Positions 25,671 to 55,478 of a stretch of DNA of 64,000 nt are shown here, piece after piece (within the stretch, counting starts at the first letter, position 1; each line of letters begins with the position of its first letter). The translations under genes and the position numbers were made by a program. Source of the stretch: the human T2T-CHM13v2.0 reference genome, Homo sapiens; NCBI RefSeq assembly GCF_009914755.1, contig NC_060943.1. One strand, given 5' to 3'. A model generated the notes under the pieces. It did not search any database. It saw only the letters and a list, made by a program, of their open reading frames with translations, and had not been told where the DNA came from.

Positions 25671-25964
<294 letters not shown>

Positions 25965-26537: not shown

Positions 26538-26735
26538 TGATCCTCCCACCTCATCCTCCCAAAGTGCTGGGATTACAAGCATGAGCCAGTGTGCCCTGAG
26601 TATTTTTTGCTTTTTTGTTTTTTTTTTTTTCAGACAGGGTTTCACTGTCATCCAGGCTGCAGTCTACTGATGCAATCATGGTTCACTTCATTCTCAGCCT
26701 TCTGGGCTCAAGTAATCCTCCCACCTGACTCCTAA

Positions 26736-26990
<255 letters not shown>

Positions 26991-28228
26991 TAGTAGAGAC
27001 GGGGTTTCACCGTGTTAGCCAGGATGGTCTCGATCTCCTGACCTTGTGATCCACCCGCCTCGGGCTCCCGGAGCTGGGATTACAGGCGTGAGCCACCGTG
27101 CCCGGCCTCATTTGTTTGTTTTGTAGAGATGGTGTCTCATTATGTTACCCAGGTGGGTCTTGAACTCCTAGGGTCAAGTAGTCCTTCCAGTTTGGCCTCC
27201 CACAGTGCTGGGATTATAGGTGTGAGCCACTGCACCTGGCCAAAAATTATCTTTGTAGTATTTAGTTTTCTTTCCTATGGGCTATCATGTGCTGATTTTT
27301 TCTGAACTGTTGGTTGGCTATTCTTCTCTCTTGTCTTTCTCTTATTCTTTATGTCATCCATGTCTCATGTAAATTCCATGTATATCTTTGCAGTGGGACT
27401 GAGAGTTCTCAGTGATCCAGAAGTTGCAGCTAAACCCAGGCTCAGCATGATGGGCCCAGAGGGAGGCCACCTCTGAGGAGTAACACCCTGGAGGAAGACA
27501 TAACATTAGGGATTTAGGAAAGTCATGCTAGAAGCTCTCTGATTTCACAAGTATTTACCTGGCAACATGACGAGCCATATGCTGTTTCTGTCTTCCCCAT
27601 TCTTGAGAGTTTCAGACTTCACCGTTCTATACCCTGTCACTTCTCCTCTGATGCCAGCCCAGGACTAATCTTCACATCTCTGGATCCCACCTGGACCCAT
27701 TTTTCTCACATTTCCATCTGCAGTGGACTCCAATACTGGCATATCAATTTTGTATTAGGAAGTGTGTACACATTGCTAAGCCATACCTGACCAACAGCTG
27801 CTTTGTTGTACTCGTATTTTCTTGTGACACACAAACAAGTGTATCTTTGTTGTACTCGTATTTTCCTGTGACACACAAACAAGTGTATCTAACAGAGGTA
27901 TTACTCCATGGAAATAATTGCAGAAACAGAATGTTGCCTTTAGGTTGAAGATAAGTCTTCTTCATATTACTGGGTTAGAATGATTACAGAATGCAGGGGG
28001 CCACATGATGTGAAGGAGCCAACAATACATGCACTACAGGAAGCAGAGGCAATTCCTTCCTGTGCAAACATCTAAAGGACCTTCATAAAGCATGTGGGTG
28101 CTATATAAAAGGATATGTCTAGGCCCAAGTAAATATAAGTACAACAAAGCAGCTGTTGATCAGGTATGGCTTAGTAATACTTCCCTTCGGAAGTACCTTG
28201 CATTTTACCAGCATTTTATTTCTTTTAG

Positions 28229-29625
28229 GTTGTTGGTATGGAGCAAAAGACGAGACACCTTCTAAGCAGACCCTTTCTATACAACAGGAGTCCCCACTCA
28301 GGACACATTGGACAGGTGTATGTACCAAGAAGGTCCACCTCTGGGGAATGTGTGGCCCTCTCCTGGGAGATATCTTACACCAGGGAACACAACACAATCA
28401 GAAATTGAATGGGTTTGGGGCATATGAAAAAAAATTGGATGACGATGCAAACCATCATCAAGACCAGAAGCAGCACATTGGAGAGAAATCGTACAGAAGC
28501 AATGCCAAGGGAACATCTTTTGTAAAGAACTGTAAATTCCATATGTCACATGAGCCATTTATCTTTCATGAGGTTGGGAAAGACTTTTTGTCCAGCTTGA
28601 GATTACTCCAACAAGAGGACATTCACACTTCAGGGAAGTCAAACTTTGAAACTAAGCATGGGATACCCCTTCAGGGTGGAAAAACTCATTACATCTGTGG
28701 AGAGTCCACAATACCGTTTAGCAACAAACACTCACTTGTCCTTCACCAGAGACTTCTCCCTAGAGAAGGACCTTATGTATGCAGTGATTCTGGGAAATTC
28801 ACTAGCAAAAGTAATAGTTTTAATAATCATCAGGGAGTTCGCACTGGAAAAAGACCTTATCAGTGTGGACAATGTGATGAATCATTTTGGTATAAGGCCC
28901 ACCTCACTGAACACCAGAGAGTTCACACTGGAGAAAGACCTTATGAGTGTGGAGAATGTGATAAATCTTTTAGTCATAAGCACAGTCTTGTTGACCATCA
29001 GCGAGTTCACACTGGAGAAAGACCTTATGAATGTGACGAATGTGGGAAATCTTTTAGCCATAAGCGCAGCCTTGTTCACCACCAGCGAGTTCACACTGGA
29101 GAAAGACCTTATCAGTGTGGAGAATGTGGGAAATCGTTTAATCACAAGTGCAACCTCATTCAGCATCAGCGAGTTCACACTGGAGAAAGACCTTTTGAGT
29201 GTACGGCATGTGGGAAGTTATTTAGGAGCAACTCCCACCTAAAGGAACACCAGAGAGTTCACACTGGAGAAAGACCCTATGAGTGTAAAGAATGTAGGAA
29301 ATCATTTAGGTACAAGTCACACCTCACTGAACACCAGAGAGTTCACACTGGAGAAAGGCCATATGAGTGTAGAGAATGTGGGAAATGTTTTCATCAAAAG
29401 GGCAGTCTCATTCAACATCAGCAGATCCACTCTGGAGAAAGGCCACATGAGTGTGGAGAATGTGGGAAATGTTTTCATCAAAAGGGCAGTCTCATTCGAC
29501 ATCAGCAGATTCACTCTGGAGAAAGGCCACATGAGTGTGGAGAATGTGGAAAGTGTTTTCGTCAAAAGGGAAACCTCATTAAACATCAACGAGTTCACAC
29601 GGGAGAAAGACATCATGAATGTTGA
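28229..29625 (+). CDS. ZNF776: ZNF776 coding exon 3: spacer, 2 degenerate and 9 intact C2H2 fingers
   Basis: TTTCTTTTAG acceptor; CxxC...HxxxH repeats with TGERP/SGERP linkers; TGA 29623-29625; spliced CDS 33+127+1397=1557 nt, 518 aa. Confidence 0.95.
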
Positions 29626-30575
29626 AAATTTGGCAGATCTGTTGGTAAAAAGAGCACCCTCATTCAACATTCGTGAGATCACACTGGAAAGCACTTATGA
29701 GTATGGAGAATGTGCAAAATCATCTAGCCAAAAGGTTGGCCTCATTCAACAATAGCAAGATTACACTGGGGAAAGGCTTTCTGAGTGTAGAGAATGTATG
29801 AAATCCTGTACATAGAAGTTTTGCCTCACCAAATACCAGAAGGGTCACACTGGAGAAAGACCCTATAGTTATGGGGAATTTGGGAAATTACCTAACAAGA
29901 AGTCCCACCTCACTGAACACTACTGAGTTCACAGTTGAGAAAGGCCATATGACTGTAAGGAATTTGTAAAATTATTTAGCCAGAAGAGCTGCATTACTAT
30001 TCATCAGATAATTTACAATGGAGAAAGGCCACATAATAATTTCTCACATAATAAATGTGAGAAATCATTTCCGTACAGCTCTGCGCTCCATGTTCGTAAG
30101 AGTTCACACTGGACAAAGCCTTATGAGAGCAGCGAGTAGAAAATCCTTTGTGGGAAAACTCTGGTTTCATTAAACACAGGAGAGTTCATGCTAGAGAAAG
30201 GCCTCAACAGTGTAGCAAATATGGAAAGACATTCACTAGAAGCTCTGCCCTGCAAGTTCACACTAGAGAAAGCCCTTCTCAGTGAAGTAAATTTGGAAAA
30301 TTGATTAGTCAAACCTCTATGCTCCTTCAAAATCAGAGTTCACACTGGATCAAGGCTTTATGGTGTGACAAATATGGCACATTCTTTATCTAAATGTCTA
30401 ACATATTATGCACAGACAAGCTCCTGCTGTGGAAGTGCCTTTTGAGTGCAGAGCATTTGCGAGGGCTTCACTCTTCTTTCACTGGATACCAGAATGTTGA
30501 CAGGAGAAAAATAACATAGATGTGTGGGAATATTACTTCTTGTCCAGTGTAACTGTGGGAGAGAGCCCTTATGAG
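29626..30575 (+). other. ZNF776: Decayed zinc-finger repeats (about 11) in the ZNF776 3' UTR
   Basis: ~84-bp periodic CACACTGGAGAAAG.CC.TATGA motifs continue past the stop with stops and frameshifts. Confidence 0.85.
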
Positions 30576-30896
30576 GACACCATCAACCTATATTGAATGT
30601 CATATGTCCAGTAGCTGCATAAATTCCAGGTATATGGGAGCTGTATTGCATTTCTTATCCTGCGTATGTCCTTGCCAGATTTATTTCATTCTTAGGTCTC
30701 TGGCAAAAGCCATTTCATCTCTACCACTTGGCAGGTACCTACAGTGCATCACTCATGCACTCCATCATATTCCAGAAAAAAAGTTCAAGTTGTCTCCCAT
30801 TCAGCAGTGGTATTTTTGAGTAGCCTCTGCACTCGTTCCTTTCTCATTTCTCTATGAAGAGTTAGGCCATGGACCTGACTCAGTTCTGGCCTAGAG

Positions 30897-31118
30897 CAGA
30901 AGTGTCCAATCTTTTGGCTTTCCTGGTCCACATTGGAAGAAGAATTGTCTTGTGCCGCATATGAAATACATTAACACTAATGATAGCTGATGAACTTTTT
31001 TAAAAATCACACAAAAACCCTCATAATGTTTTAAGAAAGTTTACAAATTTGTGTTGGGCTGCATTCAAAGCTGTCCTGAGATACATGCGGCCCACAAGCT
31101 GCGGGTTGGACCAGCTTG
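30897..31118 (+). mobile_element. MER30 (hAT-Charlie non-autonomous DNA transposon)
   Basis: GTGTCCAATCTTTTGGC...GGGTTGGACCAGCTTG with perfect 8-bp TSD GCCTAGAG (30889-30896, 31119-31126). Confidence 0.88.
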
Positions 31119-31794
31119 GCCTAGAGAATTTTTCTGATTACTTGACAAGATGGGCTGTCTTTCCTAGGAATCTCATGATTGTCATGATTCTTAAAATGGA
31201 ATTTTCCAGCCTCTAACTCACCAACCCAAGTACAAGCTGCCTCTCATTGTTCTGGTTTCTGCTATGATGAAGTCCTTATTTAAGCTTCCTTCAATCTTGG
31301 GAATTGTATTGACTGTATTGTGTGAATTGTATACTCACTGCATTGTGTGGCTTAGATACAACATGGTTCTGGTACCATGAAGGATTCTGGTACCATGAAA
31401 GTTTGTTGGGGTTACTAAACTGTGTGACTCTTAGGGAACAGTATGAAGGCAGAATATAGCTCTGCATTTGTGGCCTAGTTTGGATGGCTGCCTAAGGCCT
31501 CCAAATAAAGACTTCAGGGCTTTGTGATCTTTATTTTTAGATGAAATAGTGCAATAATATGTGTTTTCATAAATCAACCTGAGTAGGGGACAGTTTTAGT
31601 GACACACTTTGGTGCTTCTGAGAACAGCACAAAATTATTCTCTTGTTTATAATGGATATTGCATTCTGCTCAGTACTGGTGAGGGAAATCTGTTCTCAAG
31701 TCCTACAGTGCATTCATGTGTCCTGAAGTCCAGAATTCTGTAGGATAGTGTCCTACGTTATAAGCCTGGAGAAAGAAATCATAATTCTTTAATT

Positions 31795-32712
31795 TTTATT
31801 TTTTTAGGGAAATGATGTCACTCTGAAACTCAGGCTGGAATACACTGGCATGGTCATACCTCACTGCGGCCTCAAACTCCTGGGCTCAAGTGATCCTCCT
31901 GCCTCAGCCTCCCGAGTACCTGAGATTAGCCCAGGTAATTTAAGAATTTTTTATAGAGATAGGGTTTTGCTATTTTACCCTGACTGATGTTCAACTCCTG
32001 GCCTCAAGTAATCCTCTAGCATACGCCCTTGAAAGCACTAGGATTACAGGTGTGAGCCACCATGCCCAGCCCAAAAATAATTTTTGTAGAATTAGCATTT
32101 CTAGGTAGTGAAGCAGACTGCAACAGAATAGTTGGGATATACTTTTTTTAAAAAGGCATCCACAATGATTCAGTCACTATGTCTGTGATGGACAAGCAGG
32201 TACAGAAATTTTCAGGACCTCCATAATTATGAATCTAGTGTAGCTTAGGTCATTGTCAGACTAAATCTAAAGGTTTTGTGGATTTCTGTAGCCTATCTGG
32301 GCTGCATACCAAAAAGCCATCCCTGAATTAGTAGGAGGAAGAGGATAGGGAGAAAGGAAATCTCTTAGTCCAGTGATGTGGCCTTTGCAACCAGCCAGCA
32401 TTCCAATTTAATCAGGTGGAAATGATCTTCCTGGCTCATAAGTATTTGGTATCACACAGGCTAATTGCCCCCCTTAGGGCGTGATGAGAGTTAGGAGAGT
32501 CAATGTAAAATCACATAACCTATTTGTCAAAAATAATGTTAAATCCAGATAGTTCTTTCAAATTAAATTTTTAAAGCTGTAATAAGACTGGGCATGGTGA
32601 CTCATGCCTGTTATCCCAACACTTTGGGAGTCCAGGGTGGGAGTATTGCTTGAGGTAAGAAGTTTGAGACTAGCCTGGGTCCCATAGTAAGACCCTGTCT
32701 CTTAAAAAATAA
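31795..32712. mobile_element. Antisense AluJ-like element (31795-32072) and sense FLAM-like monomer (32588-32712)
   Basis: Diverged Alu motifs in opposite orientations. Confidence 0.8.
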
Positions 32713-33061
32713 ATACTATCTTTCTCTCTGGCCTCTCCATCCTCCAGACAATCACTGAATTACAATATTTGCTTAACAGTAGATTAATGTCAATTTTCTG
32801 GAATTTTATATGACTGATATAACATGTTTCCTCTTTTCATACCTGAGTACTCTCCTGAGCCCTATTTATTTAGATGTTCTTCTTTTTTCTTTATTATTAT
32901 TTTTATTTCACATAGCAGGGATGCATATTTTGACATTCATCAATCATGATATATGAGTAGTTCATTCTTTTTATCTTAGAATATGACATGCTATGGAAAT
33001 CACTGTATACGAATTCATCTGCTTATGGATATGTTATTGCTTCTTATTTTTGTCTGTTAGG

Positions 33062-33067
33062 AATAAA
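33062..33067 (+). terminator. ZNF776: Candidate distal poly(A) signal of ZNF776 (proximal alternative AATAAA at 31504-31509)
   Basis: AATAAA followed by T/GT-rich sequence; usage inferred. Confidence 0.5.
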
Positions 33068-33179
33068 ACTGCTTGTTAAGCACATTTGAATGCAATTCTT
33101 CATATAGATAAGGTTTCATTTCTCTTGTTTGAATGCCTTGGTGTGCAGTGCCCAACTCACATGGTAGATGAATGTATAC

Positions 33180-37295
<4,116 letters not shown>

Positions 37296-37329
37296 TTTTT
37301 TTTTTCTTTTTTTTGAGACAAAGTCCCAC

Positions 37330-42874
<5,545 letters not shown>

Positions 42875-43257
42875 GAGGTGGAGATTTCCCAGAACTGAGG
42901 TTCCCTCCCCTTTTTAGACTATATAGGGTAACTTCCAAACATTGCCAGGGCATTGGTATACTGTCATGGCGCTGGCGGGAGTTAGTATGCTAATGCATTA
43001 TAATTAGCGTATAATGAGCAGTGAGGATGACCACAGGTCACTTTCATCACCATCTTGGTTTTGGTGCGTTTTAGCCAGCTTCTTTACTGCATCCTGTTTT
43101 ATCAGCAGGGTCTTTGTGACCTGCATCTTGTGCCAACCTCCTATCTCATCCTGTGACTAAGAATGCCTAACCTGGGAATGCAGCCGAGTATTTCTCAGCC
43201 TTACTTTATCCAGCCCATTTTCAAGATGGAGTCACTCTGATTCCAATGCCACTGACA
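42875..43257 (-). mobile_element. MER41B LTR, 5' portion (3' end lost)
   Basis: Minus strand TGTCAGTGGCATTGGAATCAGAGTGACTCCATCTTG...AAAACCAAGATGG...GGAGGGAACCTCAGTTCTGGGAA matches MER41B as I recall it. Confidence 0.85.
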
Positions 43258-43338
43258 ATGATAAGCACTTGCCAGCAAAGAGGTGAACGCATGGATTTAA
43301 GGCACTTGAAATATCTCAGTGTAAAAGCACCCTGTGCA

Positions 43339-43797
43339 TGTAGCAGGACGAGCCGCAGACAAAACCTCTCAGACACCGAGTTGCAGAAGGAAGGGCTTTA
43401 TTCAGCTGGGAGCATTGGCCAGCTACTGTCTCAAAATCTGAGCTCCCGGAGTGCACAATTTCTGTCCCTTTTAAGGGCTCACAACACTAAAGATTTCACA
43501 TGAAAGGGTCGTGATTGATTTGAGCAAGCAAGGGGTATGTGACAGGGGCTGCATGCACCGGTGGTCAGGGAGGAACAGAACAGGGCAGGGAGTTTCACAA
43601 TGTTCTTCTATACAATCTAAGGAATCTATGAATAACATCGGCTTCTAAATCATAAGTTGATTTTTAACTACTGGGTTTAGGCCAGGCGGGCCTAGGCCTG
43701 GTTTCGGGCCTGGCGCGGGGTTGCCTGTCTTTGGTTTTACTTCCTTGTTGTTTTTACTGAATATAAAACAATGTGAGAGGGTCTCTCTCTTCTCTCA
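43339..43797 (-). mobile_element. Solo ERV1 LTR (LTR15-like)
   Basis: Minus strand TGAGAGAAGAGAGAGACCC...GTCTGCGGCTCGTCCTGCTACA; perfect 4-bp TSD TGCA (43335-43338, 43798-43801); AATAAA on minus strand near 43400. Confidence 0.8.
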
Positions 43798-43884
43798 TGC
43801 ATACATACTCCATGTTTGAACACCGCAGTCATTGTCCTGTAACATAATAGCATTTGTCTCATTAGCTTTTTGATGTTGATATCA

Positions 43885-44246
<362 letters not shown>

Positions 44247-44459
44247 GAAGAAGCCGAGCATCACAAATTCTGAAATAAGAAGTCTCCAAACACGCGGGCA
44301 ATCAGTTGCACACAGTACCCCCAGAAATGTGCGTATGGCCTCTTCTAAGATGGGAGACCCTCCTCCGCATCTGGACCTGGAGTCGCCATTTCCTAGCGCC
44401 CCTCGCAGTGGAGCTTGCCCCTTTCTTCGGAAAGTCGGAAGAAAGCCACCTTAAGCGCT

Positions 44460-45298
<839 letters not shown>

Positions 45299-45919
45299 TG
45301 ATCCGCCCACCTCGGCCTCCCAAAGTGCTGGGAATACAGGCGTGAGCCACCGCGCCTGGCCGAGGCGGAGTTGTTTCTTCAGTACCAGGCTGAGGGTTGA
45401 ACTTTGACTGTGAGGACGCTAAAAGCCATGGACAGTTTTGAACAAAGGAGGAAATCTGTGTTAGAGTTGCGATTCCCAAAAGATGTTCGAAGGAAGAACA
45501 GAGTTGAAGGCAGTGATGAGGACATTGAGAGGTTGAATCATTGAGAGGTGACATTGAGCACTGGGCCACAAGATTAGAGACTCAGTCTGAAGTCATCTGG
45601 CTGCAGGGCCAAAAAAAGCTTACAGAGAAGCCTGAGTCTATCAAATCCGAGCACAGACACATTTGTGAAAGCCCTGCCTTTTGGCACACCTCATGGCTAC
45701 AGAAGCACTTACAGAATCCACAGTAGGAAGTAGGGGATGCTCTAGTCCTTCACTGGTCCTCATCCTATCCCACATGTCTAGATCTTGGCATCTTTTTTTT
45801 TTTTCGGCGACGGGTTCTCACTCAACACCCAGGCTGGGTTGCGGTGACGCGATCACGGCGCAGCACGGCCTCGACCTCTCCGGGCTCAGGAGAGCCTCTC
45901 ATCTCAGTCTCCCGAGTAA

Positions 45920-46033
<114 letters not shown>

Positions 46034-46050
46034 TGAGACCATCCTGGCTA

Positions 46051-46362
<312 letters not shown>

Positions 46363-46751
46363 CTACCGCACCTCCTAGGACACTTAAGTGCCATTTCTCC
46401 GGTCCTTCAATCTGGGGATCTTGGAAAAACCTCAAACCCCAAACGTACATCAGTGACATAGGTTATGGGGAGTTGTTGCTATGTCTGTCAACTAATGTAA
46501 CACATGTGGAGGGTTCACCCAGGAACTGATACTGGGGTGTGCAAATACTTACTTAGAAGTGAAACTAGAGGGGTGAGGTGATGTTACCAATTTCTTAATA
46601 GGCGCTGTCTGGTTACTGAGTGGGCAACAGACTGTGGGGTTGAGGGAGGAGGAAGATCAAACTGGAAGCTACTGCCCTAGTCGAGGTGAGGATTAATGGA
46701 CTAGAGTTGTGGCTTAGGCAATGTGGCTAGATCTGGATTTGTGTTTTTTAG

Positions 46752-47037
<286 letters not shown>

Positions 47038-47228
47038 TGAGCCACCGTGCCCAGCCTGGCAACTCAATTTTTAAATGTGAACAGTGAGAGCTTGAGAGGA
47101 TTCAGGAAACACCCCTGGGTTTTTTATCTTAGCAGCTGTAGCAATGGGAGCTGCATCAACTGAGATGAGCAAGTTGATAGCAGGTGTAATATTCACTGAG
47201 GCTATCAGGAGGTTTGTTTTGGCCATTC

Positions 47229-48017
47229 TGCGTGGAAAAAAATACAAATTGCTTTTGCTCTGCTCTCCCCCACAACAATCAACACAGAGTACTTCTGTGA
47301 CTAGATAATGTGTGGATGGTTTTCCTCATACACCAAGTAGTTCTGCAGTGGACATCAGATCCCACAGGGTGAAGTCTCAGTCCCACGGGACTGTCCGCCA
47401 ACCCCTTTCGATGCCAATCACAAGCCCCAGGATGTTTTTTTTTTTTTTACCTGTCCTTTGACTGACTTGATAAAAATCAGGTTCCCATGACCCCTTCCTC
47501 GGCTTCCATTAAATTGCTAGAGCCAGTCACAGAACCTCAGGAGATGCTTTAATTTGCCAGTTTATTTTAAAGAGTATTTATTACAAAGGTTACAGATGAA
47601 GAGATGCATAAGGGGAAGCGACCCAGAGCTTTTATGATCTTCAGGCACACCACCATCCAGGAACTTCCATGTGTTTGGCTATTTGGAAGCTCCCCAGACC
47701 CTGTCTTTATGGGGTTTTATGGAGGCTTTATTACATAGGCATGATTAATTAAATCATTGGCCAATGCTGATCAGCTTAACCTTTGGCCCCCTCTCCCCTT
47801 TCTGGAGATTGGGGTATGGGGCTGAAATTTCCAGACCTCGAATCCTGACATAGTCTCTTTTCCCTGACCGGTCTCCATTCTGAAGTTATCTAGGGGTTTC
47901 CAACCATCAGTCAACTCATTGCCATTCAAAGTCACTTATAAATTTGAGAATTTCATGAATTTTAGGAGTTGCATGCCAGAAAAGGAGATGACCAAATATA
48001 TATTTCACAATATCACA
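47229..48017 (-). mobile_element. MER21-family LTR in ZNF586 intron 1
   Basis: Minus strand begins TGTGATATTGTGAAATATATATTTGGTC; absent at the homologous ZNF776 site (~23335). Confidence 0.7.
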
Positions 48018-48277
48018 CCCATATTAAGATTCTGAAATGTATTAGATACTACTTAGTGGAGCTATTAAATGGGCAGCTGGACACATAGATGCAAATATCT
48101 GGGGAAGCGTTGATATTGGAGGTATCTAATATATGGTAACTACTGTGTGGACTGAAATGATTGAGTCATGGCTCACATTTGGAAGGCACAACCTTCAGAT
48201 TATGTTGATGACACTGTTGGACAGGAAGTAGAGTTTGGGTTTCCTGCTTGTGTACCTGGTGATGGTATTGGATTTGA

Positions 48278-48544
<267 letters not shown>

Positions 48545-48862
48545 TAGGCTGGAAAGGGAGGATACATCTGACAGACTAGTTTGGCAAGTGACATAATGCT
48601 TCCAAGAAATGAATAGACTTGAGATGCATGCTGACGCATAGGAGTAGCTGAGGGAAGATGACACTCAGGCTGGAGCTTGTGTTTATTGGCCACTTTGTGG
48701 CCTCACCAAGATTTTGAGATGACTTTAGTGTGGCCTGGGGTGTTTGATTCAGCCTGGTGGATGTGGAGGCAAATATGGTCACCTTGTGAGAGTCACTATG
48801 CATGAGATTGATGACCAGTGGTTCTGGGCTTTGAATGGGGTTAGGTGGACAGAAGAAAGTCA

Positions 48863-49625
<763 letters not shown>

Positions 49626-50656
49626 CTACCATTGCTATTGAGAAACATTGGAATTCTGTGGTAATTTTGGATTCCTTTTTAATTTACCAAGACTACTGTG
49701 GATGATGTCAGCCACATTATGGTGTAAGCCCTAAAGTTAAGGTCAGTATCATGTGCTACCTTCATGTCTGGTGATACCAGTACTACCTCACATGGTCTGA
49801 GTGCAAATCTCCCTCCCCACTCTGCTCTTTGGGATAATGTGTCCTAGCTTAACTACCCTTTTAATCAAGAGGACTAGACAGAGTTCCTGGTTATTATTTA
49901 TTTGTAGCAGGTTTCAGTTTCTTTCTTTTTTTTTTTTTGAGACGGAGTCTCGCTCTGTCGCCCAGGCTGGAGTACAGTGGCAGATCTCATCTCACTGCAA
50001 GCTCCGCCTCCTGGGTTCATGATTCTCCCGCCTCAGCCTCCTGAGTACCTGGGACTACAGGCACCCGCCACCACGCCCGGCTAATTTTTGTATTTTTAGT
50101 AGAGACGGGGTTTCACAATGTTAGCCAGGATGGTCTCGATCTCCTGACCTCGTGATCTGCCCACCTCGGCCTCCCAAAGTGCAGGGATTATAGGCGTGGG
50201 CGTGAGCCACCGCACCCAATGCAGGTTTCAATTTCATTTCTACCCACAGAGTTACTCAAGCCAGTTGCAGCTGGGTGTGGTATCGCACACCTGTGGTCCC
50301 AGCTACTCAGGAGGCTGAGATGGGAGGATTGCTGGAACCCAGGAAGTTCAGGCTGCAGTGAGCTGTGATTGTGCCACTATGCTCCAGCAGGAGTGACAGA
50401 ACAAGACCCTGTCTCAAAAATTAAAAATAAAAACAAGCCAGTTGCATTCTTTTATGGGAATCAGGGACTATCACACCCTCTTGATTGAGCAAAGCTTACA
50501 TACCACAATCCCTGGTTGCTCTTTTTTTTTTTTTTTTTTTTTTGAGACAGGGTCTTGCTCCGTTGCCCAGGCTAGAGTGCAGTGGTGCCATCTAGGCTCA
50601 CTGCAACCTCCATCTCCTGGGTTCAAATGATTCTCCTGTCTCAGGCTCCTGAGTAG

Positions 50657-50761
<105 letters not shown>

Positions 50762-51462
50762 TGATCCACCCGCCTCGGCGTCCCAAATTACTGGGATTAC
50801 AGGCGTGCGCCACCGCGCCCGGCCACTCTCTCTTATGCATAGTGCAACCCCCATGTGGCTCTCTGTGGTGAGTGGTGTCCTCTTCTCTCAAGCGCTGAGC
50901 ATATTTGATTAATGAACTTTCGTGATGACTTGTGTTCAGCGTCAGGTGTTGTGTTTGGCCATCATCATAACCCTAGGGTGAAACTCCTACTCTTTACCAG
51001 TAGAAGAAAGGGGGATTAAAATACTGTAACTTCTGGCAAGACCAGAGAGAGGCCTATAGTGTGGGCAGTTAGGTGGTGGTGGCAATTGGCATGTGTCTGT
51101 GGTGTCCAAAGATGGGAAGGATGTGTACGTACATAAGGATTATGTTTGAAAGGCCTCAGGCACTGCACTGGGATTCATGTGACCTTTGCTGTACCAGGGG
51201 AATTGCTAGAAAGGAGAGGATGGAACCCTTTATTTCAGGACCACAGCATAGATACCTGTGTGCTTATCTGCCTCTTGTTGCTGACGGCTATGTGTCATGA
51301 TTAATGGTCCCATGAGGACACAGTGGCACTAGTGGGCAAAATTTCTCCTCTGAGTTGGGGATCCTGGGAGGAGGAGGATGGGCAAGGGTAGATATGTTGG
51401 GGAAGTGGACTGTGGGTCTTCAGCATAGGGGCCATTTGTGGTTTCATCTATCCCCATCATAA

Positions 51463-51624
<162 letters not shown>

Positions 51625-52696
51625 TAGTCTGTGCCCCTCACCTTTATGCCTTATCTCTTTCTCACACCAGGACCATGGACACAGCTTCATTCTCCAGTTC
51701 TCTGGAGAGGTTCTGTTGTTGGTTGGACTGAGGTGTACGTACTGCCCTGTCCTTTCCTTGAGCAGCCCCAACCTGCTTTGTTGCAGGCTTCCAGGGAAGG
51801 AGTCAGGGTCAGGAGTCTTAAAGTCACCCTAATGCCTCCCACCTTGGTTGTCCTCTGCCTGTCTGGGTGACTGTGCAGATCCAAGGCTTCTGTTTGTCTC
51901 AAGTTCCGTTTCCCTCCTTTAGTTCACATTTGTTCATGCTACGAATTGTCGTCACTGATGTGGTCATTATGTACATGAACCACAGCCTATTCTTGCAATA
52001 CCCTACTTCAAAATTCTTTTTGTAGTATTTCATCAGGCACAATAACACCTGTCATCCCAGCTCTTCAGAGGCTACTCGGAGCCCAGGAGTTTGAGGCCAG
52101 CCTGGCCAACATAGCAGGTCCTCATCTCTAAAAATATATAGGAAGGAATTCTTTTTGTAATATTTAGTTTCTTTTCCTGTGGAATATCAAATGCAGAGTT
52201 GTTCTGAGCCAGCATTGGCTGTTCGTCTGTCCTATTTTTCCCTTAGTACTTACATTATCGAGTTTCCATGTAGTTGCTCATCTTGGTGGTGAAATGAAGA
52301 GCCCGTGGTTGTCCCTAAGATGTAAATGAGTCCAGCCTTAGCAAGGACTTGGGGCAGCTTGGTTCTGAAGAATAGCATGTGAGTAAGGTCATGACATCAG
52401 GGCTCTATTCAAATTATGCCATAGACCTCTTCTATTTGACTAGTATTTTCATGCCAATAGAAGTAGCCCCACTTTATGTCTTTCCTTCCCCATTCTTGAG
52501 AGTGCCAGTTTATTAGTCCTACACCTTGTTGCTTCTGCTGTTACATCCAGCCCAGGACTAATTTTCATATATCTGGACTCCACGTCTCACCTATTTTTCT
52601 CACGGCTCTGTCTGCAGTGGTCTTCAATATTGGCTCATGTATTTTGTATTACGAAGTATATACCCATTCTTTTTTTTTTTTTTTTTTTTTTTTTGA

Positions 52697-52801
<105 letters not shown>

Positions 52802-53672
52802 TGAGTAGCTAGGATTACAGGGGCCCACCACCACGCCCGGCTAATTTTTGGGGTATTTTTAGTAAAGATAGGGTTTTACCATGCTGGCAAGGCTGGTCTT
52901 GAACTGACCTCAGGTGATCCACGCCCCTCAACTTCCCAAAGTGCTGGGATTACAGGTGTGAGCCACCGCGCCCAGCCTCTATGGAGTATATAATCTTTTT
53001 TTTTTTTTTTTCTTGAGACAGTTTGCTCTGTTGCCCACGCTGGAGTGCAGTGGCACAGTCTAGGCTCACTGCAACCTCCGCCTCCCAGGTTCAAGCAAGT
53101 CTCCTGCCTCAGCCTCCCGAGTATCTGGTATTACAGGTGCATGCCACCACACCTGGCTAACTTTTATTTTTAGTAGAGATGGGGTTTTGCCATGTTGGTT
53201 GTTGACCAGGCTGGTCTCAAACCCCTGACCTTGTGATCCACCCACCTCGGCCTCGCAAAGTGCTGGGATTAGAGGCATGAGCCACGGTTCTCGGCCACGT
53301 ATATACCTATTCTTAACAGTCCCTGACCAAAGGATGTTGTGCTCTAGTCATGTTGGGGGGGGCCTGGACATATTTATATAGTACTCACACGTCATCAGCA
53401 AATAAGGTTCCACAGGCAAGTTGTTTGCAAATGAAGGAGTTATAGACCCTGCCTTTATTCTGTCTGTTGACTCATTTAGTCATGCCCTTGACAATATGAG
53501 GCCTTCTATATCTGTGATAATGCTAAGCAGCCCCAACCTCAACCTGAACCCAACTCCCTGTTTGTGCAAATAATTCCATAGACTAGTTTTTTGGTTTGTC
53601 AGATACTCTTGTGGGTAGGCTGCATACTCAACAAAGTCAACATGTACCTCACCAGCATTTCTTTGCTTTTAG

Positions 53673-54718
53673 GTTGTTGGCATGGAGGGGAAGATGAGGC
53701 AGCACCTTCTAAGCAGAGCACGTGTATACATATATACAAAGACCAGGGAGGTCATAGTGGAGAAAGGCCTTATGAGTGTGGGGAATATAGGAAATTATTT
53801 AAGAACAAGTCCTGCCTCACTGAACCCAGAAGAGATCACAAACACAGGAATGTTCGCACTGGAGAAAGGCCTTATGAGTGCAGCAAATATGGGAAATTAT
53901 TTCACCAAAAGCCTACACTCCATATTCATGAGAGATTTCATACTGGGCAAAAGACCTATGAGTGCAGTGAGTGTGGAAAATCATTTCACCAAAGCTCTTC
54001 ACTCTTGCAGCGTCAGACACTTCACACTAGAGAAAGGCCTTATGAGTGTATTGAATGTGGGAAAGCCTTTGCTGAAAAGTCCAGTCTCATTAACCACAGG
54101 AAAGTTCACTCTGGAGCAAAGCGTTATGAATGCAATGAATGTGGGAAGTCCTTTGCTTATACATCTAGTCTCATTAAACACAGGAGGATTCACACTGGAG
54201 AGAGGCCTTATGAGTGCAGTGAATGTGGGAGATCCTTTGCTGAAAACTCCAGTCTTATTAAACACTTGAGAGTTCACACAGGAGAAAGGCCTTATGAATG
54301 CGTTGAGTGTGGAAAATCATTTCGCCGAAGCTCTTCACTCTTGCAGCATCAGAGAGTTCACACTAGAGAAAGGCCTTATGAATGTAGTGAATGTGGGAAA
54401 TCCTTTAGCTTAAGGTCCAACCTCATTCACCATCAGCGAGTTCATACTGGAGAAAGGCATGAGTGCGGGCAGTGTGGGAAATCCTTTAGCCGAAAATCTA
54501 GCCTTATTATACATCTGAGAGTTCACACTGGAGAAAGGCCTTATGAGTGCAGTGACTGTGGGAAATCCTTTGCTGAAAACTCCAGCCTTATTAAACACTT
54601 GAGAGTTCACACTGGAGAAAGGCCATATGAATGCATTGATTGTGGAAAATCATTTCGCCACAGTTCTTCGTTCCGTCGCCATCAGAGAGTTCATACTGGA
54701 ATGAGGCCTTATAAGTGA
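53673..54718 (+). CDS. ZNF586: ZNF586 coding exon 3: very short spacer, 3 degenerate and 8 intact C2H2 fingers
   Basis: GCTTTTAG acceptor; finger array; TGA 54716-54718; spliced CDS 36+127+1046=1209 nt, 402 aa. Confidence 0.95.
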
Positions 54719-55478
54719 AGCAAATTTTGGAAATTCTCTTGCCCAGGCTTTTTGCTCCTTCAAGGCCAGAGAGTTCACACCGGATCAAGGTGTTATGAGT
54801 GTGACAAATGGGGAATATTCTTTAGCTAGAATGCTAGCTTCTTTACATAAAAGAGTGCTCCCACTGAAGAAGTGCCTTTTGAGTGCAATGAATGTGAGAA
54901 AGCCTTCAGCCCTCTCTCATTGGTTACCACAATATTTACATGAGGAAAATACCACAGATGTGGAGGTAATATTATTTTTTCTTCAATATAACACTGGAGG
55001 AAACCCCTTATGAGGATGCCATCTGCCTAAATTGAATGTCATACATCAAATAGCTGCATACATTCCAGGTATGTGGGAACTGCATAGTATTTTTCGACCT
55101 GCCCAGGTCTCTTGCTAGACTTCTGTGACTTACAGTTCTCTTCTAAAAAGCATTTCACCTTTACCACTTGGCAGGTGCCCACAGTACATCATTCGCCTAA
55201 CTCATCATGATCCAGAAGTAACTTTGATTTTGTTTCATTCAACAGAGGGATTTTTTAGTATCCTCAGCACTCATTCTATTCTCATTTCTTTCTCTCCAAT
55301 GAGTTAGGCCATGAACCTGACTCATTTTTGGCACAGAGGACTCTTCTGATAACTTGAAAAAATGGACTACCTTTTTCAGGGATCTTTTGGATCTCACAGA
55401 ATTCTTAAGATGGAATTTTCCAGCCTGCCAGTCATGAATCTCAGACAGCCTGCCACCTATTGCCCTGATTTGTGTTAT

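What the first reader, a model, noticed from the sequence alone, without database searches (positions are those of the whole stretch)
28229..54960. ZNF776 and ZNF586 appear to have kept complementary halves of one ancestral zinc-finger array
Seen: both last exons start alike (CCTTCTAAGCAGA...TATACA at ~28258-28283 and ~53705-53730). ZNF586 then jumps to AAAGACCAGGGAGGTCATAGTGGAGAAAGGCCT (53738), matching AAATACCAGAAGGGTCACACTGGAGAAAGACCC at 29831 in the ZNF776 3' UTR, so ZNF586 lacks ~1.55 kb (spacer plus all 9 fingers ZNF776 uses). The next dead ZNF776 UTR fingers track ZNF586 coding fingers in order: AAGTCC..CCTCACTGAAC; AAATTATTT..CCA.AAG...TATTCAT; a shared CGT at the first His position; the SFAENSSLIKH type; the RSS..HTRE type. 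The ZNF586 stop (aagTGAagcaaattttggaaa, 54716) aligns with cagTGAagtaaatttggaaaa at 30283 in the ZNF776 UTR, and the UTRs stay collinear afterwards. Inference: the ancestor stopped at that TGA; ZNF776 gained an earlier stop (29623) and dropped about 8 distal fingers, while ZNF586 deleted the proximal block. The sister repressors would then read DNA with non-homologous fingers.
Basis: partly seen in the sequence, partly recalled or inferred. Interest (0 to 1): 0.8.

Follow-up and report, generated by a model that had tools for sequence, protein, structure and literature searches.

The report
ZNF776 and ZNF586 use different finger sets
Two neighbouring human KRAB zinc-finger genes read DNA with non-matching parts of an older, longer finger array that several of their neighbours still carry whole; this is a tidy example of a known way in which such genes diverge, not a new mechanism.

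Summary
The core idea holds once neighbouring paralogs from the same assembly are added.

**ZNF776.** Its 3'UTR holds eight decayed finger units, U1-U8 (29614-30276), behind the stop TGA at 29623. U4-U8 match, in order, the last five coding fingers of ZNF587 and the ZNF417-like gene. I call these types T1, T2, S, A and last. A fossil TGA at 30283 follows.

**ZNF586.**
- It uses that same TGA as its stop, at 54716. A ZNF418-like neighbour does too.
- It has no spacer and no proximal block.
- Nine of its 11 units fall in well-supported clades of distal types, together with U4-U8. None falls in the proximal clade that holds ZNF776's C2-C4 and C7-C9.

- The two genes are not shown to be sisters; the family tree is star-like.
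- The whole array survives in ZNF587, ZNF587B and the ZNF417-, ZNF814- and ZNF418-like genes.
- ZNF586's working fingers are mostly its own re-expansion of A and S/last types.
- F2 pairs with U6, not U5.
- The shared CGT and the 29831 anchor are not specific.

Interest is modest.

The parts
25722..25848 (+). ZNF776 KRAB-A exon
   Evidence: Pfam KRAB box, E 1.5e-22. Exon limits come from the hub's gene table.
28229..28689 (+). ZNF776 spacer at the start of the last exon. Only about its first 60 bases have a counterpart in ZNF586.
   Evidence: Translation. The exon starts are aligned.
28690..28857 (+). Degenerate units D0 and D1. D1 is the family's first, non-canonical finger type.
   Evidence: D1 groups with unit 01 of ZNF587 and the ZNF417-like gene (UFBoot 100). 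Its best hit is 587B_01 at 80%.
28858..29613 (+). ZNF776 canonical fingers C1-C9, the block that the protein uses
   Evidence: Unit table. C2-C4 and C7-C9 lie in the proximal clade (UFBoot 87). C1, C5 and C6 lie in the T-class clade (UFBoot 97).
29614..29863 (+). Fossil units U1-U3. U1 holds the ZNF776 stop TGA at 29623-29625, where C8 and C9 have GGA.
   Evidence: One search shows TGTTGA in U1 against TGTGGA in C8 and C9. U1 and U2 are of the proximal type. U3 is T0-like, 69% against 61-63%.
29864..30276 (+). Fossil units U4-U8: the family's distal module T1, T2, S, A, last, now in the 3'UTR
   Evidence: Collinear match to the last five coding fingers of the ZNF417-like gene and ZNF587: 73% and 72% over about 490 bases, E 1.8e-72 and 4.7e-67. 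Class by class.
30277..30358 (+). Fossil unit U9 with the old family stop, TGA 30283-30285, in the first-Cys codon
   Evidence: Aligned with the working stops of ZNF586 and the ZNF418-like gene. U9+V1 has UFBoot 96.
30359..31298 (+). 3'UTR collinear with the ZNF586 UTR
   Evidence: HSPs. The 700 bases after the TGA are 71% identical to ZNF586 and 69% to the ZNF418-like gene.
51466..51592 (+). ZNF586 KRAB-A exon
   Evidence: Pfam KRAB box, E 2.6e-22
53673..53741 (+). ZNF586 exon start: the remnant of the spacer, up to ...ATATACAAAGA
   Evidence: It matches the starts of ZNF552, ZNF587B and the ZNF814-like gene; the residues EDEAAPSKQS are identical.
53742..53770 (+). Tail of a finger cut by the deletion (..GGHSGERP)
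   Evidence: The Gly-His before the linker is also found in U3, 587_06 and 814_16. At 23-26 of 33 bases the match is not specific to any one of them.
53771..54040 (+). F1-F3: in frame, but not canonical fingers. F1 and F2 lack the second Cys, F3 has Arg for the first His, and F1 carries 18 extra bases.
   Evidence: Classes: F1 is T class, F2 is S type, F3 is last/S' type.
54041..54709 (+). F4-F11: the eight canonical fingers of ZNF586
   Evidence: F4, F5, F6 and F10 are A type with U7 (UFBoot 98). F7 and F11 are last/S class. F8 and F9 are unresolved.
54710..54792 (+). Unit V1, with the ZNF586 stop TGA 54716-54718 in the first-Cys codon
54793..55514 (+). ZNF586 3'UTR collinear with the ZNF776 UTR

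Best explanation
**What the two genes are.** ZNF776 and ZNF586 belong to a tandem family of KRAB zinc-finger genes on 19q13.43. The other members seen here are ZNF552, ZNF587B, ZNF587 and genes I take to be ZNF814, ZNF417 and ZNF418.

**The founder's last exon (inferred).** It encoded, in this order:
- a spacer;
- one or two degenerate fingers (D);
- a proximal block whose copy number varies between paralogs;
- a conserved distal module of types (T0) T1, T2, S, A and last;
- a stop, TGA, in the first-Cys codon of the next unit.

**ZNF776.** A single-base nonsense change (GGA to TGA at 29623) ended the reading frame after nine canonical fingers. Eight units passed into the 3'UTR. They have since decayed at about the neutral rate, which suggests the change came early in the gene's history. 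The UTR fossils are shown; the order and date of the events are inferred.

**ZNF586.** One in-frame deletion joined the start of the spacer (about 53741) to the tail of the finger that precedes the T-class unit. This removed the spacer, the D units and the proximal block. The A and S/last types were then multiplied by tandem duplication to give eight canonical fingers, which end at the old TGA.

**Consequence.** Both proteins keep a standard KRAB-A box. They would presumably bring the same co-repressor to different DNA sites, because their zinc-binding fingers come from different homology classes.

**Limit.** The two losses are independent events in a star-like family. They are not shown to be a reciprocal split between sister genes.
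For: 1. **The whole array exists in paralogs.** The last-exon ORFs of ZNF587, ZNF587B and the ZNF417-, ZNF814- and ZNF418-like genes all carry spacer, D, proximal and distal units in one frame.
2. **Best genome-wide match of the fossils.** For ZNF776 29864-30420 the best matches in the assembly are the distal coding fingers of the ZNF417-like gene and ZNF587: 73% and 72% over query 11-499, E 1.8e-72 and 4.7e-67. ZNF586 follows at E 2.5e-30, in the register U7-F10, U8-F11, U9-V1.
3. **Tree of 114 finger units (IQ-TREE).**
   - Clade at UFBoot 99: U6, U8, U9, V1, F2, F3, F7, F11 and the paralog S and last units.
   - Clade at 98: U7, F4, F5, F6, F10 and the paralog A units.
   - Clade at 97: U3, U4, U5, F1, C1, C5, C6 and the paralog T units.
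   - Clade at 87: C2-C4, C7-C9, U1, U2 and the paralog proximal units. It holds no F unit.
   - FastTree recovers the A clade at 0.93, F2 with the S type and U6 at 0.92, U5 with T2 at 0.92, and U4 with T1 at 0.73.
4. **Best class among 82 paralog units.** U4-U8 give T1, T2, S, A, last, in that order. Seven of the 11 F units are clearly distal. F1 ties between T1 and A at 80%, F9 is A at 79% with proximal at 78%, F11 is S at 80% against S' at 79% (both distal types), and F8 is proximal at 82% against A at 79%.
5. **Shared stop.** ZNF586 and the ZNF418-like gene use the TGA, and ZNF776 has it as a fossil. The same unit type lies in the ZNF814-like UTR and in the chr3 intronless copy.
6. **Decay of the fossils.** Terminal branches of U1-U8 average 0.238, against 0.066 for C1-C9. 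ZNF776's non-coding branches are 0.216 (UTR tree) and 0.155 (KRAB flank tree).
7. **Age of the ZNF776 stop.** It is at least catarrhine-old: a Papio protein 95% identical over the spacer ends ...GERHHEC, as the human protein does.
8. **Later duplications inside each gene.** F6/F10 are 94% identical, F3/F7 90% and C7/C8 95%. Between the genes, non-coding sequence is 70-74% identical.
9. **Domains.** KRAB boxes and C2H2 fingers are confirmed by Pfam.
Against: - **Raw identity.** All 11 ZNF586 fingers are closest to a unit upstream of the ZNF776 stop (a coding finger, or for F11 a tie of C6 with the degenerate D1), not to a fossil. Examples are F1-C6 80% against F1-U4 73%, and F8-C4 81%.
- **Top BLAST alignment.** The highest-scoring alignment of the two exons is gap-poor and collinear. 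It puts F1-F3 opposite C7-C9.
- **Unresolved units.** F8 is closest to proximal units (82%) and is unresolved in both trees. F9 is weakly placed.
- **F1.** It cannot be told apart as T0, T1 or T2 (mean identity 74, 70 and 72%). ZNF776 has coding fingers of that class (C1, C5, C6), so the split is not clean at class level.
- **Short units.** At 84 bases per unit, several deep nodes have supports of 31-57.
- **No outgroup species.** No sequence from another species was available beyond the one Papio protein. The polarity of events rests on human paralogs alone.
- **Names.** ZNF418 is a name recalled from memory. ZNF814 and ZNF417 are recalled, with partial backing from the passages read in PMC10940857.
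Confidence: 0.75

Rival explanations
1. ZNF776 and ZNF586 are sister genes from one duplication. After it, each lost the half that the other kept, with a one-to-one order U4-U8 = F1, F2, F3, A type, RSS type. This would be a domain-level case of duplication followed by complementary loss.
For: - The two genes are adjacent, on the same strand, and alignable along their whole length at 67-71%.
- The UTR tree joins them, at UFBoot 73.
- They share the TGA.
Against: - In the KRAB exon with its flanks, ZNF776 is closer to the ZNF418-like gene (78%) and to ZNF552 (77%) than to ZNF586 (74%). Internal supports in that tree are 49-56.
- ZNF586's 5' flank is 73-74% identical to ZNF552, ZNF587B and the ZNF814-like gene, and 50% to ZNF776.
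- ZNF586's array with the start of its UTR matches the ZNF418-like locus best: 73% over query 11-1215, E 2e-187.
- F2 is of the S type, not T2.
- F3 and U6 belong to different types.
- The TGA is shared with a third gene.
Confidence: 0.15
2. ZNF586 is the sister of the ZNF418-like gene and derives from an array of that layout. Both lack T1 and T2: a T0-like unit is followed directly by an S-type unit. On this view F1 corresponds to T0, a type that ZNF776 still uses as the coding finger C6. The two proteins would then share one homologous unit type, although that unit is dead in ZNF586.
For: - F1's best hits are 418_09 and C6, both at 80%.
- Both genes show a T-class unit followed by an S-type unit.
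- Both end in ...PYK and then TGA.
- Identity with ZNF586: UTR 73% to the ZNF418-like gene against 71% to ZNF776; 5' flank 70% against 50%.
- The best genome-wide match of the ZNF586 array is the ZNF418-like locus.
Against: - F1 is not resolved between T0, T1 and T2 (74, 70 and 72%).
- In both trees the S'/last units of the two genes pair within each gene, not between the genes.
- The gene trees are star-like.
- In ZNF776 the T0 unit by position is the fossil U3, which lies directly before U4. C6 would then be a duplicate, not the positional match.
Confidence: 0.3
3. Plain collinear homology. The 11 ZNF586 units match the 11 ZNF776 units counted back from the shared TGA (C7-C9, U1-U8). The first three ZNF586 fingers would then be homologs of the last three ZNF776 coding fingers.
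For: The top blastn HSP joins 53739-55338 with 29330-30896: 1633 columns, 68% identity, E about 1e-140.
Against: - In that register the double-centred residuals sum to about -10. Each of the 11 lies between -6 and +3.
- The unit classes disagree in that register: F1 (T class) faces C7 (proximal) and F4 (A type) faces U1 (proximal).
- The fit in length is a coincidence of unit counts.
Confidence: 0.03
4. Chance. Any finger resembles any other finger, and the ordered matches carry no specific signal.
For: - The tail anchor at 29831 is no better than other finger tails: 25/33 against 23-26/33.
Against: - U4-U8 take the five distal classes in the canonical order.
- They align collinearly with ZNF587 and the ZNF417-like gene at E 1e-67 to 1e-72, ahead of every other locus in the assembly.
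- The class clades have UFBoot 97-99, and a second method recovers them.
Confidence: 0.02

Closest known systems
Divergence of KRAB zinc-finger genes by gain and loss of finger units (Nowick et al. 2011, PMC3126818; passages read)
   Same: [quoted passage not shown] It describes chimpanzee ZNF780B losing nine fingers, both internal and terminal, and notes one finger gained between ZNF417 and ZNF587. ZNF776 (terminal loss) and ZNF586 (internal deletion followed by duplication) show the same kinds of change.
   Different: Here the two losses remove non-overlapping classes in two paralogs of one family. The lost part of one gene can still be read as fossils in its own 3'UTR. The passages I read do not treat ZNF776 or ZNF586.
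The ZNF587/ZNF417 pair and its 19q13.43 neighbours (Martins et al. 2024, PMC10940857; passages read)
   Same: This is the same gene neighbourhood. The paper lists ZNF587, ZNF587B, ZNF586, ZNF814, ZNF417, ZNF671, ZNF776 and ZNF552 within one stretch of 200 kb, and gives ZNF417/ZNF587 as 98% alike. Its shRNA target for ZNF587B/814 is the exon-start motif seen here.
   Different: The paper concerns function in cancer cells. The passages I read say nothing about the layout of the arrays or about fossil fingers.
Duplication-degeneration-complementation, the subfunctionalisation model (recalled; no paper read here)
   Same: Two copies each lose a different module of a modular ancestor.
   Different: The model needs the two copies to be products of the same duplication and to divide the ancestor's function between them. 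Sister status was tested here and not shown. Division of function could not be tested. Other family members keep both modules.
Finger remnants behind the stop codon of KRAB zinc-finger genes (recalled from the older literature on KRAB-ZNF evolution; not found with the terms)
   Same: A stop codon or a frameshift retires the distal fingers, which then remain as recognisable units in the 3'UTR. In this family that holds for ZNF776, ZNF587 and the ZNF417- and ZNF814-like genes. ZNF586 and the ZNF418-like gene also have fossil units behind their TGA.
   Different: Nothing in kind. ZNF776 is a large case, with eight units.

Membership tests
KRAB-C2H2 zinc-finger proteins | An N-terminal KRAB box | tested here: met
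   Pfam PF01352 in exon 2 of both genes, E 1.5e-22 and 2.6e-22
KRAB-C2H2 zinc-finger proteins | A tandem array of C2H2 fingers joined by TGEKP-like linkers and encoded in one last exon | tested here: met
   Linker anchors lie 84 bases apart. There are nine canonical fingers in ZNF776 and eight in ZNF586. Pfam finds zf-C2H2 and zf-H2C2_2.
19q13.43 subfamily around ZNF587/417/814/587B/552/418 | A shared start of the last exon (GCW..EDE..PSKQ) and a shared spacer | tested here: met
   The exon starts of eight genes are aligned. ZNF776 has the full spacer and ZNF586 only about its first 23 codons.
19q13.43 subfamily around ZNF587/417/814/587B/552/418 | The distal module T1-T2-S-A-last at the end of the array | tested here: met
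   ZNF776 carries it as the fossils U4-U8. ZNF586 carries the T, S, A and last classes, but no clear T2 and extra copies of A and last.
Reciprocal (complementary) loss between sister duplicates | The two genes are each other's closest relatives | tested here: not met
   The trees are star-like, with internal supports of 49-73. ZNF776 is as close or closer to the ZNF418-like gene and to ZNF552, and ZNF586's 5' flank is closer to the ZNF552 group.
Reciprocal (complementary) loss between sister duplicates | The common ancestor carried both modules in one reading frame | tested here: met
   Five paralogs still do. ZNF776 itself holds both, one of them as fossils.
Reciprocal (complementary) loss between sister duplicates | The parts kept do not overlap | tested here: inconclusive
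   No F unit lies in the proximal clade. However, F8 is unresolved, and F1 is T class, as are the coding fingers C1, C5 and C6.
Reciprocal (complementary) loss between sister duplicates | The two copies divide the ancestor's binding sites between them | not testable with these tools
   No binding data were on hand. The one paper holding both 'ZNF586' and 'ChIP-exo' gave a single ZNF586 passage with no motif.

The most novel reading that the evidence does not exclude
The founder's array was truly bipartite: a fast-changing proximal block and a conserved five-finger distal module, each able to find DNA sites on its own. ZNF776 (proximal only) and ZNF586 (distal types only) would then be natural single-module versions of it. 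ZNF552 (spacer plus the distal five) would be a third version. The target sites of the whole-array members ZNF587, ZNF417 and ZNF418 would be composites of sub-sites that the single-module genes have divided between them. If so, one human gene family would offer a ready-made test of modular site recognition by long finger arrays.
Probability: 0.15. Interest if true: 0.55.

Novelty: new member of a known kind. Interest (0 to 1): 0.33.

Why it matters
- **A well-documented case.** Every step can still be read in one genome. The whole array survives in five neighbours, the retired half lies as eight fossils in ZNF776's own 3'UTR, and ZNF586 has a trimmed and re-expanded version.
- **For users of binding data.** Despite their adjacency and similar gene structure, the motifs of ZNF776 and ZNF586 should not be expected to resemble each other. 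ZNF586's motif is more likely to share parts with the distal fingers of ZNF552, ZNF587 and ZNF417.
- **A caution on method.** Raw finger-to-finger identity points the wrong way when one side has decayed. Classes defined from paralogs give the better answer.
- **Scope.** The finding does not change how this gene family is understood.

Tried and rejected
1. **Raw unit identity matrix.** It favours coding units for every F unit. I judged it biased by the decay of the fossils and replaced it with double-centred residuals, ML trees and best hits among paralog classes.
2. **Plain collinear alignment (top HSP).** Rejected on unit classes and residuals.
3. **Protein database, ZNF586 residues 1-125 of the last exon.** The 120 listed hits, out of 727 with E <= 0.001, are generic zinc-finger proteins at 39-57% identity. 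No ZNF586 ortholog appears, so the search says nothing about other species.
4. **Protein database, ZNF776 spacer.** One hit among 46 candidates, a Papio protein. It shows only that the stop is shared with an Old World monkey.
5. **The odd GERH linker shared by F8 and C9.** I considered it as a sign of homology. I dropped it because the order would not fit and because His-ending linkers also occur in the ZNF814-like gene.
6. **F2 as a T2/S hybrid.** The first 36 bases do not discriminate (18-26 of 36 across the T1, T2 and S units). The last 48 favour S (30-35) over T2 (27-30). Left open.
7. **The last 1.5 kb of intron 2.** It is crowded with what look like Alu-type repeats (my reading; the hub table masks these stretches as repeats), and only short stretches are comparable.
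9. **Literature.** The search for 'ZNF776' with 'ZNF586' found 3 papers. In the one I opened, the passages shown do not deal with array layout; the other two I saw only as listings. Searches on finger loss and fossil fingers gave only Nowick 2011 as relevant.

Full report
**What was checked**

I read both last exons and rebuilt the two annotated proteins.
- The exon-start motif begins at 28258 and at 53705.
- The two finger tails begin at 53738 and at 29831.
- The ZNF776 stop is at 29623-29625, the ZNF586 stop at 54716-54718, and the fossil TGA at 30283-30285.

I then cut both exons into 84-base finger units, using the linker as anchor:
- ZNF776: degenerate units D0 and D1; nine canonical fingers C1-C9; eight decayed units U1-U8 (29614-30276, 663 bases); and U9, which holds the fossil TGA.
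- ZNF586: a cut finger tail; F1-F3, which are in frame but not canonical; eight canonical fingers F4-F11; and V1, which holds the stop.

**Direct comparison of the two genes gives a mixed answer**

- In raw identity, each of F1-F11 is closest to a unit upstream of the ZNF776 stop (a coding finger, or for F11 a tie of C6 with D1). Only V1-U9 (74%) stands out across the genes.
- The top blastn alignment is a plain collinear one that puts F1 opposite C7.
- The fossils have decayed, however: their mean terminal branch is 0.238, against 0.066 for C1-C9. Intact fingers therefore look alike simply because they are intact.
- After removing row and column means, the best partners are F1-U4 (+10), F2-U6 (+6; U5 +5), F6/F10-U7 (+4/+3), F3/F7-U8 (+7/+5) and V1-U9 (+17). 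For F3 and F7 the top residual is in fact the degenerate unit D0 (+8). The plain collinear register sums to about -10.
- A 32-unit ML tree puts U7 with F4, F5, F6 and F10 (UFBoot 91) and U9 with V1 (98).

**The decisive evidence comes from the neighbours**

The window's own assembly can be searched. The ZNF776 fossil stretch 29864-30420 finds as its best matches in the genome the last exons of ZNF587 and its near-twin, which I take to be ZNF417: 72-73% identity over query 11-499, E 4.7e-67 and 1.8e-72. Matches to a ZNF814-like locus, a chr3 copy, ZNF552 and ZNF587B follow. ZNF586 matches at E 2.5e-30, in the register U7-F10, U8-F11, U9-V1.

The reading frames of these loci show that ZNF587 and the ZNF417-like gene carry, in one frame:
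- the spacer and a D unit;
- six further units, the last of a type I call T0 (RYRSHLTEH);
- five distal fingers: T1 (KLFNRKYHLLVH), T2 (KLFGNK..VTIH), S (SFLSSSALHVH), A (SFAECSSLIKH) and last (KTFQRSSTLLHH).

ZNF587B and the ZNF814- and ZNF418-like genes also carry both blocks. ZNF552 has the spacer, one D unit and then only the five distal fingers.

**Unit trees and class assignment**

A tree of all 114 units (IQ-TREE) gives four main groups:
- S/last superclade, UFBoot 99: U6, U8, U9, V1, F2, F3, F7, F11 and the paralog S and last units. Within it, U6 groups with the ZNF587/417-like S units (90) and U8 with 418_14 (83).
- A clade, 98: U7, F4, F5, F6, F10 and all paralog A units.
- T clade, 97: U3, U4, U5, F1, C1, C5, C6 and the paralog T0, T1 and T2 units. 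U5 groups with unit 09 of ZNF587 and the ZNF417-like gene (93).
- Proximal clade, 87: C2-C4, C7-C9, U1, U2, D0 and the paralog proximal units. It contains no F unit.

F9 attaches weakly (42) beside the A clade, and F8 is unresolved. FastTree recovers the same picture: A clade 0.93, F2 with the S type and U6 0.92, U5 with T2 0.92, U4 with T1 0.73, and U9 with V1 0.96.

Best hits among 82 paralog units give U4-U8 = T1, T2, S, A, last, in order. They give F4-F6 and F10 = A (85-88%), F7 = last (82%), F3 = S'/last (80/78%), F2 = S (73%, with T2 at only 64%) and F11 = S/S' (80/79%). F1 is T class (80%, tied with one short A unit), F9 is A 79% against proximal 78%, and F8 is proximal 82% against A 79%.

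**The stops**

- ZNF776 (as a fossil), ZNF586 and the ZNF418-like gene share a TGA in the first-Cys codon of the unit after the array.
- The same unit type sits at the end of a second, fossil set of distal units in the ZNF814-like UTR. It also sits behind the array of an intronless copy on chr3.
- ZNF776's working stop is TGA where its neighbour units C8 and C9 have GGA. A single base change suffices.
- A Papio protein 95% identical over the spacer ends at the same residue.
- U1-U8 all have long terminal branches (0.17-0.34). These are about the length of ZNF776's own non-coding branches, 0.216 and 0.155. This fits one early truncation; it is an inference.

**The ZNF586 deletion**

Homology with the family's exon start runs to ...ATATACAAAGA, at about 53741. 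It is closest to ZNF552, ZNF587B and the ZNF814-like gene, where the residues EDEAAPSKQS are identical. A finger tail with Gly-His before the linker follows. That tail matches U3 at 25 of 33 bases, and seven other tails match at 23-26.

How much ZNF586 lost cannot be said. Proximal unit counts range from 0 (ZNF552) and 1-2 (the chr3 copy) to about 16 (the ZNF814-like gene). Part of ZNF776's own block is young: C7/C8 are 95% identical.

**Are they sisters?**

This was not shown.

| Partition (call) | ZNF776-ZNF586 | ZNF776-418-like | ZNF586-418-like | Other |
|---|---|---|---|---|
| 700 bases after the family stop (23) | 71% | 69% | 73% | the split joining ZNF776 and ZNF586 has UFBoot 73 |
| KRAB exon with 450 bases each side (38) | 74% | 78% | 75% | ZNF776-ZNF552 77%; internal supports 49-56 |
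| 330 bases of intron plus 62 of exon (28) | 50% | 53% | 70% | ZNF586 to ZNF552, ZNF587B and the ZNF814-like gene 73-74% |

In ZNF776 only the last 50 or so bases of that intron align with any family member. ZNF586's array with its early UTR matches the ZNF418-like locus best in the genome: 73% over query 11-1215, E 2e-187. The family looks like a near-simultaneous radiation with some mosaic history.

Two papers call ZNF586 and ZNF587 primate-specific (passages read). I could not date the events here.

**Conclusion**

ZNF776's working fingers are of the proximal and T0 types. ZNF586's working fingers are of the A and S/last types. The ZNF776 counterparts of those types lie dead in its 3'UTR.

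The account needs three changes:
1. The whole array is a family feature that five neighbours still have. It is not something peculiar to this pair.
2. ZNF586's array is mostly its own re-expansion (F6/F10 94%, F3/F7 90%).

Gain and loss of fingers is described as the common path of divergence in this gene family (Nowick 2011, passages read). This is therefore a clear new example of a known process.

Noticed in passing
L016 (G000:C19:60901500-60907500, minus strand; inside the hub's ZNF552 span): ZNF552 keeps the full spacer and one D unit, then goes straight to the five distal fingers T1-T2-S-A-last. This is a second loss of the proximal block, apparently independent of the one in ZNF586. Its 5' flank is 97-98% identical to ZNF587B and the ZNF814-like gene, so the loss looks recent.
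   Followed up: partly
L013 (G000:C19:60966500-60973500, minus strand; ZNF814-like): The reading frame ends in a T1-like unit that is 2 bases short, so an out-of-frame TGA is read (...HQSSHWRKAI). Behind it the UTR holds a second set of units, T2', S', A' and last', followed by the same unit type that holds the TGA in ZNF776 and ZNF586. T2' and S' are still open in another frame. The coding part also has a run of near-identical D-like units.
   Followed up: partly
L003 and L002 (ZNF587 and the ZNF417-like gene), the ends of their last exons: Both stop at an out-of-frame TGA after a 2-base shortfall inside the last finger (...HHQSSHRRKAL). An A-type fossil finger and a further unit lie directly behind the stop. 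ZNF552 and ZNF587B reach the same TGA through a shortfall in the linker instead.
   Followed up: partly
L005 (G000:C3:31796764-31800090): An intronless copy of a family member on chromosome 3. KRAB, spacer and array are contiguous, and the spacer is broken by what looks like an Alu-type insertion. Its units read D1, one proximal unit, T0, T1, T2, S, A, last, A, last', followed by the TGA unit and an A-rich run. It may be a snapshot of an early, short-array transcript.
   Followed up: partly
window 29362-29529; 54209-54292 with 54542-54625; 53957-54040 with 54293-54376: Young duplicates inside the arrays: C7/C8 are 95% identical, F6/F10 94% and F3/F7 90%. This is far above the 70-74% seen between the two genes in non-coding sequence.
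   Followed up: partly
window 53771-53872: F1 is 102 bases long. The 18 extra bases look like a tandem copy of the segment that encodes the His-x3-His part of the finger (EPRRDH / KHRNVR).
   Followed up: no
P0121 (database protein, Papio anubis): UniRef names it 'Zinc finger protein 551', yet it is 95% identical to the ZNF776 spacer and ends exactly as human ZNF776 does. The name is probably wrong. Its extra 86 residues are an upstream extension at the N-terminus.
   Followed up: no
window 26729-28180: Upstream of the last ZNF776 exon, only the final 50 or so intron bases align with any family member. In contrast, ZNF586, ZNF552 and the ZNF418- and ZNF814-like genes align with one another over 200-390 bases. 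Something has replaced or removed this stretch in ZNF776.
   Followed up: no
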